This document shows, one piece after another, positions 19,616 to 20,129 of a stretch of DNA of 64,000 nt. The notes beneath the pieces were generated by a model, which saw only the letters and a list, made by a program, of their open reading frames with translations, was not told the DNA's origin and did no database searches. The position numbers were made by a program, and so were the translations under genes. Each line of letters starts with the position of its first letter. The first letter of the stretch is position 1. This DNA comes from an uncultured Oscillospiraceae bacterium (GTDB lineage Bacteria; Bacillota; Clostridia; Oscillospirales; Oscillospiraceae). The stretch is taken from NCBI GenBank assembly GCA_964430345.1, contig CAYSFK010000001.1, forward strand, positions 7 to 64,006, in the 5' to 3' direction.

Positions 19616-19639
19616 AAAAAGGGGCATCTAAGATGCCCC
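19611..19639 (-). terminator. Rho-independent terminator of the tiny Cys-rich gene
   Basis: GGGGCATC-TAA-GATGCCCC followed on the minus strand by TTTTTCTATTT. Confidence 0.6.
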
Positions 19640-19651
19640 CCCGATGATGCT

Positions 19652-19804
19652 TTAGCAGCCGCAGCCGTTGTTGCAGCCGCAGTTGTTGCCGCAGCCGCAG
19701 CCGTTATCGCAGCCGCAGCCACAGCCGTTGTTTCCCCAGCCGAAGAGGATGATTATCAGGATGATTATCCAGAGGCTGCCGTTGTTACAACCGTTGCAAA
19801 ACAT
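19652..19804 (-). CDS. 50-aa Cys/Gly/Asn-rich tiny single-TM protein
   Basis: MFCNGCNNGSLWIIILIIILFGWGNNGCGCGCDNGCGCGNNCGCNNGCGC. The ATG at 19804 is preceded by GGAGAAAGGG, and a terminator lies immediately downstream. It is the C-terminal part of a 144-aa track ORF whose N-terminal 94 aa do not look like coding sequence. Confidence 0.6.
   Translation of the reverse strand: MFCNGCNNGSLWIIILIIILFGWGNNGCGCGCDNGCGCGNNCGCNNGCGC
19655..19732. repeat. Codon-level GCAGCC/GTTGTT microrepeat tract (encodes the GC/NN repeats)
   Basis: Plus strand reads gcagccgcagccgttgttgcagccgcagttgttgccgcagccgcagccgtt... Confidence 0.7.
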
Positions 19805-20078
19805 AACAGTGTCCCTTTCTCCGCACCTTTGTTTTGATGCAGCGCTGCCCGGTGCGGCGTGACAGCTTTTCAGTGGCTTGTGTATTGGCTCTGAGGCCGA
19901 TCCCCCGAAATTGGAGCCTGCGGTGCCATCCGCATCGCTCGTGCCATAATATGCTGTTTTTCCGGGCCTTGCTACTCGCACGGCCGTTAAGGAGATAAGT
20001 TTGATACAAGTCCAGATTTCATTGGACTTAAGCGCGATTTTCGTGCCGCCGCGGCGGCAGCCGAAGATCATGCACATC

Positions 20079-20129
20079 ATGGCCATTCCCTTTCATGGTC
20101 ATTTTGTGCCTTGAGAAAGGAATGGCCAT
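20079..20129 (+). promoter_or_regulatory. Long stem-loop overlapping the mltG ribosome-binding region
   Basis: ATGGCCATTCCCTTTC, 20 nt, GAAAGGAATGGCCAT (15 bp with one bulge). The 3' arm contains the AAAGGA Shine-Dalgarno candidate. Confidence 0.4.

What the first reader, a model, noticed from the sequence alone, without database searches (positions are those of the whole stretch)
19652..19804. 50-aa tiny membrane protein that is 22% cysteine, built from G-C-G-C / N-N repeats
The peptide MFCNGCNNGSLWIIILIIILFGWGNNGCGCGCDNGCGCGNNCGCNNGCGC has a good RBS (GGAGAAAGGG) and its own terminator. It consists of a short Cys-containing N-terminus, a 13-residue Ile/Leu core, and a tail with nine Cys in alternating GC dipeptides.

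In format it recalls the tiny single-TM YjcZ-type sporulation proteins of Bacilli, but I have not aligned them. The dense CGC repeats could also suggest a membrane-anchored metallothionein-like metal or redox buffer, or a disulfide-crosslinked spore-layer component.

The organism carries sporulation genes (spoIIA operon, SASP) in this same window. No RiPP-modifying enzymes flank the gene (neighbours are tmk and mltG), so a RiPP precursor seems unlikely.
Basis: partly seen in the sequence, partly recalled or inferred. Interest (0 to 1): 0.6.

Follow-up and report, generated by a model that had tools for sequence, protein, structure and literature searches.

The report
Cysteine-rich tiny sporulation-type membrane protein
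The 50-codon, 22%-cysteine ORF is a real gene from a widespread, unnamed family in spore-forming gut Clostridia, and its conserved promoter is of the type used late in spore formation in the mother cell, so it is most likely a small membrane-anchored part of the spore envelope.

Summary
Window 19652..19804 (-) encodes MFCNGCNNGSLWIIILIIILFGWGNNGCGCGCDNGCGCGNNCGCNNGCGC, with a Shine-Dalgarno site, its own terminator and GC3 of 0.84. The 144-aa extension is not the product.

The gene belongs to a conserved family. The family profile matched 83 of 201 genomes of the same GTDB family, 35 of 301 in the order and 46 of 400 in the class Clostridia. About 100 loci were read. Named hosts include Flintibacter muris, Marasmitruncus massiliensis, Colidextribacter and Pseudoflavonifractor isolates. 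Every source calls the protein hypothetical or gives no name.

Seventy-eight of 99 loci carry AC-N16/17-CATAnnAT upstream, about 350 times background. This is the sigmaK (late mother-cell) promoter type. In the same genomes spoIVA carries the sigmaE-type ATA box instead.

Most members sit between tmk and mltG. pN/pS is about 0.35.

There is no match to Pfam, NCBIfam, PADLOC, PHROGs or PDB. The YjcZ models fail, and a profile-profile comparison with YjcZ gives 10% probability. The protein therefore works like YjcZ but is not a member.

What the Cys/Gly/Asn tail does is inferred, not shown: disulfide cross-linking of the spore envelope or metal/thiol buffering.

This scan has already noted similar cysteine-rich sporulation-type microproteins on other DNA. 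The tool that finds sequencing runs was closed, so expression could not be tested.

The parts
19971..19975 (-). -35-like element GTAGC. Relatives have GTCAC, GTAAC or GGAAC here; the C is the base that separates the sigmaK type from the sigmaE type.
   Evidence: It lies 17 nt upstream of the -10 box. In relatives the hexamers are GTCACC x38 and GTAAC x17. PMC3789822 gives the -35 as AC for sigmaK and ATA for sigmaE.
19946..19953 (-). -10 element CATATTAT, the box of the mother-cell sigma factors.
   Evidence: An exact CATAnnAT occurs upstream in 29 of the first 31 loci and in 89 of 99 in all, against 0.03 per 200 nt in the background. PMC3789822 calls CATATTAT a canonical -10 box for mother-cell sigma factors.
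19919..19934 (-). Small hairpin TGCGG-ATGGCA-CCGCA at the predicted 5' end of the roughly 135-nt leader.
   Evidence: Read from the sequence. Relatives have a hairpin, often with a GAAA-type loop, at the same place in their leaders. This was judged by eye, not by statistics.
19821..19857 (-). Leader helix. The 5' arm is CCGCACC (19851-19857). The 3' arm is GGTGCGG (19821-19827) and abuts or overlaps the first GG of the SD.
   Evidence: RNAalifold on 13 long-leader relatives gives an 8-pair consensus helix. Three of its pairs show compensatory changes, for example G-C in 8 sequences and A-U in 4.
19813..19822 (-). Shine-Dalgarno region GGAGAAAGGG.
   Evidence: An SD-like site lies within 20 nt of the start codon in 96 of 99 family loci.
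19652..19804 (-). Coding sequence of the 50-aa Cys/Gly/Asn-rich protein with one hydrophobic helix (stop codon included).
   Evidence: AlphaFold2 gives a helix at residues 9-21 (block pLDDT about 79) and pLDDT below 50 for the tail.
19618..19642 (-). Intrinsic terminator hairpin followed by a T-run, oriented for the peptide gene.
   Evidence: A terminator-like hairpin with a T-run lies within 70 nt downstream in 61 of 99 family loci.

Best explanation
This is a single-gene transcription unit: promoter, structured leader of about 135 nt, 50-codon ORF and terminator. It encodes a tiny protein made late in sporulation in the mother cell, from a sigmaK-type promoter.

The 11-14-residue Ile/Leu helix anchors the protein in a membrane or a hydrophobic layer. 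That is most plausibly the outer forespore membrane or the base of the coat. The charge-free Cys/Gly/Asn tail (CGC repeats, usually ending in CGC) is exposed. There it most likely serves as a thiol-rich structural element that becomes disulfide cross-linked into the spore envelope.

Shown here:
- It is a real gene under purifying selection.
- The family is conserved across Clostridia.
- The sigmaK-type promoter motif is conserved.
- The position between tmk and mltG is conserved.
- There is no detectable relation to any curated family.

Inferred:
- Expression actually depends on sigmaK (my estimate about 0.8).
- The product sits in a membrane or the spore envelope (about 0.6).
- The tail works by disulfide cross-linking (about 0.35-0.4).
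For: 1. Real gene. Homologues of 39-88 aa share the core M(F)C..N..(L)W-IIILIIILF-G-(C/G/N)n-CGC.

2. Promoter. AC-N16/17-CATAnnAT occurs in 78 of 99 upstream 200-nt windows, against 0.0022 per 200 nt elsewhere in the same loci. The motif is also present in AT-rich members from other families of the class. PMC3789822 states that sigmaE and sigmaK share the -10 box and differ at -35, ATA against AC.

3. Calibration in the same genomes. spoIVA and spoIIIAA of this genome have GTCAT/AGAAT-N17-CATA. In 20 relatives that carry the peptide, 9 of the 12 detectable spoIVA promoters have AT at that position and none has AC. The cotJA-cotJB coat gene of this genome has the AC type.

4. Sigma factors. 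The genome has a sigmaE gene and a sigmaK-like gene, and also SpoIVA, SpoIIID, SpoIIIAA, SpoIID and a DpaA-like gene.

5. Co-occurrence with sporulation. Seventy-eight of 83 peptide-positive genomes have SpoIVA. Four of the five exceptions are 85% complete or less. In three genera (g11, g74, g109) the member without SpoIVA also lacks the peptide, while its sister genome has both (tabulated by hand).

6. Analogy. B. subtilis yjcZ, a tiny protein with one hydrophobic segment, belongs to the sigmaK regulon (PMC517825). Cysteine-rich CdeC and CdeM build the C. difficile exosporium (PMC6101409).
Against:
- The window's own -35 element reads GTAGC, not xxAAC or xxCAC.
- No clean sigmaK calibrator was found in this genome. 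dpaA has no recognisable motif and yabG was not found; the genome is 81.6% complete.
- cotJ is sigmaE-dependent in B. subtilis (my own knowledge).
- Sporulation genes are nearly universal in this order (272 of 301 genomes have SpoIVA), so co-occurrence has little power. More than half of the SpoIVA-positive genomes have no detectable member.
- The hydrophobic run is short for spanning a bilayer.
- Nothing bears directly on disulfide formation as opposed to metal binding.
Confidence: 0.6

Rival explanations
1. Membrane-anchored metallothionein-like metal or thiol buffer. The CGC-repeat tail binds Zn, Cu, Cd or Fe, or acts as a sacrificial reductant. In this way it protects the spore membranes of a strict anaerobe from metals or oxygen, and is not a structural cross-linker.
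For: Nine Cys in 23 tail residues form Cys-X-Cys motifs. Across the family the composition is C 20%, G 24% and N 18%, with almost no charged residues. The tail length varies by in-frame repeat units, which suggests selection on composition more than on fold. This reading is compatible with the sigmaK-type promoter.
Against: No member matches any Pfam or NCBIfam metallothionein model. No metal-responsive regulator or transporter is linked; the neighbours are tmk and mltG or rex. Metal binding cannot be tested here.
Confidence: 0.17
2. Membrane-active lysis or toxin peptide. It is either a holin-like factor that helps lyse the mother cell at the end of sporulation, or a type I toxin whose long leader sequesters the ribosome-binding site.
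For: It is a small hydrophobic peptide. The long structured leader has a conserved helix that ends at the SD. Late mother-cell timing would suit a role in mother-cell lysis.
Against: - It is a single-copy gene, inherited vertically at a housekeeping locus across many genera.
- No antisense promoter overlaps the ORF. The only sigma70-like hits are on the + strand and point towards mltG.
- It lacks the charged tail typical of holins and type I toxins.
- A second class of members has short leaders of 32-60 nt.
- It has no PADLOC or PHROGs match.
Confidence: 0.07
3. Precursor of a ribosomally made, post-translationally modified peptide. The product would be thiazole-containing or thioether-containing (ranthipeptide or SCIFF-like), and the modifying enzyme would be encoded elsewhere in the genome.
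For: Repeated Cys next to Gly, Asn or Asp resembles the cores of heterocycle-containing and ranthipeptide RiPPs (my own knowledge; this is a lead only).
Against: No maturase is adjacent in any of the syntenic loci. This genome has no YcaO (81.6% complete). The supposed leader would be a very hydrophobic helix without a recognition motif. The promoter is of the sporulation type.
Confidence: 0.04
4. Lipoprotein-type signal peptide. The helix would be cleaved at an L-F-G-C lipobox, releasing a lipidated Cys-rich peptide of about 25 residues.
For: Thirty-four of 98 members have a lipobox-like [LVI]x[GAS]C at the end of the helix.
Against: The window's peptide has LFGWG there, and two thirds of the members have no such box. 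The N-region has no Lys or Arg.
Confidence: 0.03
5. Not a gene: either a chance ORF in a GC-rich repeat, or the 144-aa ORF 19652..20086 is the real product.
For: The DNA is repetitive (GGCTGC units), and an open frame does extend 94 codons upstream.
Against: The extension is not conserved, contains the conserved promoter, and has a GC3 of 0.59 against 0.84 for the short ORF.
Confidence: 0.02

Closest known systems
YjcZ family sporulation proteins of Bacillaceae (Pfam PF09680 YjcZ_2; NCBIfam TIGR01732 tiny_TM_bacill)
   Same: Both are tiny (about 30-60 aa). Both have a small-residue-rich N-terminus, one very hydrophobic Ile/Leu/Val segment ending in G (FALIVVLFILLIIVG against LWIIILIIILFG) and a short tail of low complexity. 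B. subtilis yjcZ is in the sigmaK regulon (PMC517825), and this family carries a sigmaK-type promoter. Both often occur as several paralogues.
   Different: No sequence relationship is detectable. The HMMs give no hit at E<=10. hhalign gives 10% probability over one aligned column. The YjcZ tails are Gly/Tyr-rich with few or no Cys; here the tail is about 40% Cys with CGC repeats and Asn. YjcZ proteins were found in Bacilli; this family is in Clostridia.
Cysteine-rich spore-surface morphogenetic proteins (C. difficile CdeC and CdeM; Bacillus CotY, CotZ and ExsY)
   Same: They are cysteine-rich proteins made late in the mother cell that build the outer spore layers (PMC6101409 and PMC7677010). 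That CotY, CotZ and ExsY form disulfide-linked arrays is my own knowledge.
   Different: Those proteins are much larger (CdeC about 400 aa by my own knowledge), soluble and self-assembling, with no hydrophobic anchor. No sequence similarity was found.
Metallothioneins, and eukaryotic CYSTM (cysteine-rich transmembrane module) peptides
   Same: They show a high density of Cys-X-Cys motifs in a very small protein. CYSTM peptides combine a Cys-rich segment with a membrane anchor and act in stress tolerance (PMC11866895, abstract seen).
   Different: No model matches. CYSTM peptides are eukaryotic and tail-anchored, with the cysteines inside the helix. Here the cysteines lie outside the helix and the gene has a sporulation-type promoter.
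Similar cysteine-rich microproteins noted earlier by this scan in other Clostridia (e1-1497471, e1-2019526, e1-4117830, e1-2218663, e1-4002795)
   Same: These are unchecked AI notes. They describe 44-76-aa Cys/Gly-rich hydrophobic ORFs with late-sporulation-type promoters in gut Clostridia. That is the same kind of object and the same reading.
   Different: They lie on other genomes, and their sequences were not similar enough to be found by a sequence look-up. Whether they form one superfamily with this MFCNGCNN-type subfamily was not tested.

Membership tests
YjcZ family (PF09680 / TIGR01732) | Match to the family HMM at or above its curated cut-off | tested here: not met
   There is no hit at E<=10 for the peptide. 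Six-frame searches of the whole genome with PF09680 and TIGR01732 give no hit, while the B. subtilis control scores above the cut-off. None of the 37 family members hits either model.
YjcZ family (PF09680 / TIGR01732) | Remote homology detectable by profile-profile comparison | tested here: not met
   hhalign of A1 (37 members) against A4 (33 proteins that NCBI or UniRef name YjcZ family) gives 10.2% probability over one aligned column.
YjcZ family (PF09680 / TIGR01732) | Tiny protein with one hydrophobic segment flanked by small-residue-rich sequence | tested here: met
   (helix at residues 9-21).
YjcZ family (PF09680 / TIGR01732) | SigmaK-dependent expression during sporulation | tested here: inconclusive
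   The promoter motif is of the sigmaK type, but no expression data were obtainable.
SigmaK-dependent promoter (AC, 16-17 nt, CATA---TA) | -10 box of CATAnnnT(A) type | tested here: met
   The window has CATATTATG at 19945-19953 (-). The box is present in 89 of 99 family loci.
SigmaK-dependent promoter (AC, 16-17 nt, CATA---TA) | -35 element AC (not the ATA of sigmaE), 16-17 nt upstream | tested here: inconclusive
   The window has GTAGC: the C and the 17-nt spacing are kept, but the A is replaced by G. Relatives have AC in 78 of 99 loci. spoIVA controls in the same genomes have AT in 9 of 12 and AC in none.
Metallothionein | Match to a metallothionein family model; metal-thiolate cluster | tested here: not met
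   There are no Pfam or NCBIfam hits. Metal binding itself cannot be tested with these tools.
RiPP precursor (TOMM, ranthipeptide or SCIFF type) | A maturase gene (YcaO cyclodehydratase or radical SAM/SPASM enzyme) next to the precursor gene | tested here: not met
   The neighbours are tmk and mltG in 22 of 31 loci. In the second class the upstream neighbour appears, by eye, to be rex. The genome has no YcaO. Radical SAM enzymes encoded elsewhere in the genome were not searched.
Bacterial lipoprotein | Lipobox [LVI][ASTVI][GAS]C preceded by a positively charged N-region | tested here: not met
   The window's peptide has LFGWG and no Lys or Arg. Only 34 of 98 members have a lipobox-like string.
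Type I toxin-antitoxin toxin | Overlapping antisense RNA gene; charged tail; patchy or mobile distribution | tested here: not met
   No minus-strand-overlapping promoter was found. The tail is uncharged. The chromosomal position is stable across genera. The existence of an antisense RNA cannot be excluded without transcript data.

The most novel reading that the evidence does not exclude
The family is a previously unrecognised spore-envelope device of strictly anaerobic Clostridia. It would be a membrane-anchored, charge-free poly-thiol tail that stays reduced inside the mother cell. On release into air it would either cross-link and so harden the envelope, or act as a sacrificial thiol and metal buffer. 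Either way it would help oxygen-sensitive gut bacteria survive transmission between hosts.
Probability: 0.25. Interest if true: 0.7.

Novelty: new variant of a known kind. Interest (0 to 1): 0.5.

Why it matters
Spores are how many oxygen-sensitive gut commensals pass between hosts. Yet almost everything known about spore envelopes comes from Bacillus and C. difficile.

This family is common in Oscillospiraceae-like and other Clostridia, but it is effectively invisible for three reasons:
- Gene callers miss it or extend it. The exact 50-aa product is not in a collection of 15 billion proteins.
- Curated libraries have no model for it.
- With almost no Lys or Arg it gives no tryptic peptides, so standard spore proteomics would not see it.

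A family model would improve annotation of many gut genomes. It would also give a compact, testable candidate for how anaerobe spores use thiol chemistry. Cultured carriers exist for experiments.

Tried and rejected
- **Curated libraries.** Pfam, NCBIfam, PADLOC, PHROGs and PDB sequence searches gave nothing meaningful. Sub-threshold TatA and ODV-E18 hits are hydrophobic-segment noise.
- **YjcZ.** Membership is rejected.
- **The search for related loci in genome contigs.** It confirmed only 1 of 207 pattern matches. I suspect tblastn filtering of low-complexity sequence, but did not check. A degenerate DNA pattern search and profile searches of whole genomes worked instead.
- **Co-occurrence with SpoIVA at order level.** This was uninformative, because 272 of 301 genomes have SpoIVA.
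- **SigmaK calibrator in this genome.** None was found. dpaA and the sigK-like gene show no recognisable motif, and yabG was not found.
- **AlphaFold2.** It gave only the helix; the tail has pLDDT below 50. No fold search was run.
- **Literature.** Searches found no paper on this family. A search for SscA/yhzE led nowhere.
- **Other readings.** The lipoprotein, RiPP, type I toxin and 144-aa-ORF readings were considered and rejected, as set out under the rival explanations.

Full report
**1. The observation**

The minus strand of the window carries an ORF from ATG at 19804 to TAA at 19652-19654. It translates to MFCNGCNNGSLWIIILIIILFGWGNNGCGCGCDNGCGCGNNCGCNNGCGC.
- It has 11 Cys in 50 residues (22%), nine of them in the tail, and a 13-residue hydrophobic core.
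- GGAGAAAGGG lies at 19813-19822.
- A hairpin of 11 pairs followed by a T-run lies at 19618-19642, oriented for this gene.

**2. Is it a gene, and which ORF?**

A word-indexed search of 5.8 billion protein clusters returned 73 proteins of 42-88 aa. All share the core M(F)C-N-rich / (L)W-IIILIIILF-G / (C,G,N)n-CGC. The residues that precede the MFC start in the longer gene calls are unrelated to one another.

A profile search of 1.84 billion cluster representatives gave 110 representatives at E<=0.001.

In each of the first 31 related loci the same kind of ORF (39-55 aa) is present.

Across the 13 codons that start at the conserved Trp:
- The second codon position is almost invariant: entropy 0.21, against 0.88 and 0.90 at positions 1 and 3.
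- Position 1 switches only among the Ile, Leu and Val codons.

This is the signature of a hydrophobic coding constraint.

Further evidence:
- Thirty same-length pairs give pN/pS of about 0.35. The pairs are not independent.
- Length differences between relatives are in-frame repeat units.
- GC3 is 0.84 in the short ORF. The median for long ORFs of the genome is about 0.75. GC3 is 0.59 in the 94-codon upstream extension.
- The conserved promoter lies inside that extension.

The 50-aa form is therefore the product. The exact 50-aa sequence is absent from the 15-billion-protein collection, so it is missed or mis-called by gene finders.

**3. Distribution**

The family profile gave the following results.

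| Group searched | Genomes matched | E-value limit |
|---|---|---|
| Window's GTDB family | 83 of 201 (68 of 134 genera) | 0.01 |
| Window's order | 35 of 301 | 0.001 |
| Class Clostridia | 46 of 400 | 0.001 |

- In the order sample the hits concentrate in some families (8/18, 5/18, 4/5) and are not found in others.
- In the class sample the matches include families outside the window's order (10/14, 5/7, 5/13).
- A degenerate DNA pattern for WIIILIIILFG found 56 further loci in named records, and all of them are this peptide.
- Named carriers include Colidextribacter sp. OB.20, Marasmitruncus massiliensis Marseille-P3646, Flintibacter muris DSM 110149, Pseudoflavonifractor sp. 60, several cultured 'Oscillospiraceae bacterium' isolates, and MAGs of Lawsonibacter, Anaerotruncus and Candidatus Limivicinus.
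- Some genomes have two paralogues.
- Where a source names the protein, the name is 'hypothetical protein'.

**4. Genomic context**

In 22 of the first 31 loci the gene sits exactly as it does here: convergent with tmk and divergent from mltG. Tmk identity falls as low as about 37-50%. The position has therefore been inherited vertically over long distances.

A second class lies elsewhere. These members have a short leader, the SD CAGGAGGT, and N-termini such as MSCNSGFCAFGNSWWW or MCNQGNSC. By eye, they lie downstream of a gene whose C-terminus looks like that of Rex.

No modification enzyme, transporter or mobile-element gene is linked in either class.

**5. Promoter**

Aligning the upstream regions on the start codon exposed a conserved CATAnnAT(A/G) with AC located 16-17 nt upstream.

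Over all loci:
- 78 of 99 have the full motif within 200 nt upstream, against 0.0022 per 200 nt in the rest of the same loci.
- 89 of 99 have the -10 box, against 0.03 per 200 nt in the background.
- The -35 hexamers are GTCACC (38), GTAAC(N) (17) and GGAACC (4), among others.
- AT-rich members from other families of the class have the same GTAAC-N17-CATAnTATG.

Saujet et al. (PMC3789822) report that the sigmaE and sigmaK promoters of C. difficile, like those of B. subtilis, share the -10 box. They call CATATTAT 'canonical' for the mother-cell sigma factors. The two differ at -35, with ATA for sigmaE and AC for sigmaK.

I calibrated this in the organisms themselves:
- In this genome spoIVA has GTCAT-N17-CATAAACT and spoIIIAA has AGAAT-N17-CATAGGAT.
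- In 20 relatives that carry the peptide, 12 have a recognisable spoIVA promoter. Nine of these read AT at the discriminating position and none reads AC.
- The AC-type motif precedes a fused cotJA-cotJB coat gene in this genome.
- 22 of its 37 genome-wide matches lie outside ORFs, although only about 15% of the genome is non-coding.
- The genome encodes sigmaE (360 bits) and a second sigma factor that scores better as sigmaK (252 bits against 195).

In the window the elements are GTAGC (19971-19975), a 17-nt spacer and CATATTAT (19946-19953). The -10 box and the spacing are perfect. The -35 element keeps the C but has G in place of A.

The predicted transcript starts near 19939. It has a leader of about 135 nt and ends at the terminator, for a total of roughly 330 nt.

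**6. Leader**

The long-leader class shares two features:
- a 5'-terminal hairpin (19919-19934 here);
- an 8-pair helix whose 3' arm abuts the SD (arms at 19851-19857 and 19821-19827).

Three pairs of the helix show compensatory changes. I take these as mRNA-stabilising or translation-tuning elements. This is inference only.

**7. Link to sporulation beyond the promoter**

SpoIVA is present in 173 of 201 genomes of the family sample and in 272 of 301 of the order sample. Co-occurrence therefore has little power.

By hand tabulation:
- 78 of 83 peptide-positive genomes have SpoIVA.
- The five exceptions are 63, 70, 73, 85 and 93% complete.
- 95 of 118 peptide-negative genomes have SpoIVA.
- In three genera (g11, g74, g109) the genome without SpoIVA also lacks the peptide, while its congener has both.
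- One counter-example exists: G150, 93% complete, has the peptide but no SpoIVA.

This is compatible with a sporulation role but is weak evidence for it.

**8. The protein**

Ninety-eight unique members were analysed.
- Composition is G 24%, C 20%, N 18%, I 11% and L 6%.
- Only eight contain Lys or Arg.
- Seventy-three contain Asp.
- The median is 11 Cys and four CGC triplets.
- The C-terminus is CGC in 62 members and GCC in 17.

AlphaFold2 with the family alignment gives a helix at residues 9-21, with a mean pLDDT of about 79 for that block. The rest has pLDDT below 50.

The hydrophobic run of 11-14 residues is short for a bilayer span. The protein may therefore be a thin-membrane or interfacial anchor.

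The near absence of Lys and Arg means there are no tryptic peptides.

**9. Comparison with known families**

Pfam, NCBIfam, PADLOC, PHROGs and PDB sequences give no meaningful match for the peptide or for any of 37 members.

For YjcZ:
- The YjcZ models find nothing in this genome but do ring in the B. subtilis control.
- I retrieved 33 proteins that NCBI or UniRef name 'YjcZ family sporulation protein'. Their consensus is ..GYGxGFALIVVLFILLIIVGASW...
- hhalign against this family gives 10% probability over one aligned column.

The protein therefore works like YjcZ: tiny, with one hydrophobic segment, and probably sigmaK-controlled. B. subtilis yjcZ is in the sigmaK regulon (PMC517825). It is not a member of that family.

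The Cys-rich tail is reminiscent of metallothioneins. It also recalls the disulfide-linked, Cys-rich outer-layer proteins of spores, such as CdeC and CdeM (PMC6101409). No homology to these was found.

No paper in the searchable library describes the family.

**10. Earlier notes of this scan**

After I had reached the reading above, a word search showed that this scan had already flagged similar objects on other genomes. The notes are e1-1497471, e1-2019526, e1-4117830, e1-2218663 and e1-4002795. Follow-up agents read them as cysteine-rich sporulation-type microproteins.
- These are unchecked AI notes and I do not count them as evidence.
- They do mean the present locus is a further subfamily of something this scan has seen before. 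I would describe it as the Oscillospiraceae 'MFCNGCNN' type.

**11. Verdict**

| Claim | My estimate |
|---|---|
| The gene is real and conserved | about 0.97 |
| It belongs to the late mother-cell (sigmaK-type) class | about 0.8 |
| It is a membrane-anchored spore-envelope component | about 0.6 |
| Its tail works by disulfide cross-linking | about 0.35-0.4 |
| Its tail works by metal or thiol buffering | about 0.17 |

The lysis or toxin, RiPP, lipoprotein and artefact readings are each unlikely.

Noticed in passing
window 19923-19950 (+): A sigma70-like promoter hit lies on the + strand, pointing towards mltG: GTGCCA-16-CATAAT with an upstream TG. Its -10 box overlaps, back to back, the minus-strand CATATTAT box of the peptide gene, because CATAATATG is nearly palindromic. 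It could be the mltG promoter or a mirror-image artefact of the scan.
   Followed up: no
window 19821-19857 and 19919-19934 (-): The leader of the peptide gene is structured. It has a 5' hairpin and a conserved 8-pair helix that ends at the SD, with compensatory changes in relatives. It may modulate translation or mRNA stability.
   Followed up: partly
L005, L006, L008, L010, L012, L023, L027, L028, L030: A second paralogous class of the peptide has a short leader, the SD CAGGAGGT and N-termini such as MSCNSGFCAFGNSWWW or MCNQGNSC. It lies at a different conserved position, in several loci downstream of a gene whose C-terminus looks like that of Rex. Some genomes carry both classes.
   Followed up: partly
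L044 (82-aa ORF), L038 (76+ aa), P0066 (83 aa): Some members are tandem double modules, with two hydrophobic segments each flanked by Cys/Gly/Asn repeats. This suggests internal duplication of the whole unit.
   Followed up: no
G000:C13:5646-6138 (+), outside the window: A single 142-aa ORF fuses the CotJA and CotJB domains (Pfam PF11007 and PF12652). It is preceded by the same AC-N17-CATATAAT motif.
   Followed up: partly
G000:C100:7315-7533 (+), C147:1428-1780 (-), C162:1977-2900 (+), C3:31720-33030 (+), outside the window: Other intergenic matches to AC-N16/17-CATAnnAT[AG] in this genome precede four genes: a 53-aa highly basic ORF with no Pfam match, an 80-aa Se/S-carrier-like protein, a DUF11 repeat protein and a MurA-like enzyme. 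These are possible further members of the late mother-cell regulon.
   Followed up: partly
window 19655-19804 (-) and family-wide: The peptides contain almost no Lys or Arg, so they yield no tryptic peptides. Together with their small size, this would hide them from standard spore proteomics.
   Followed up: no
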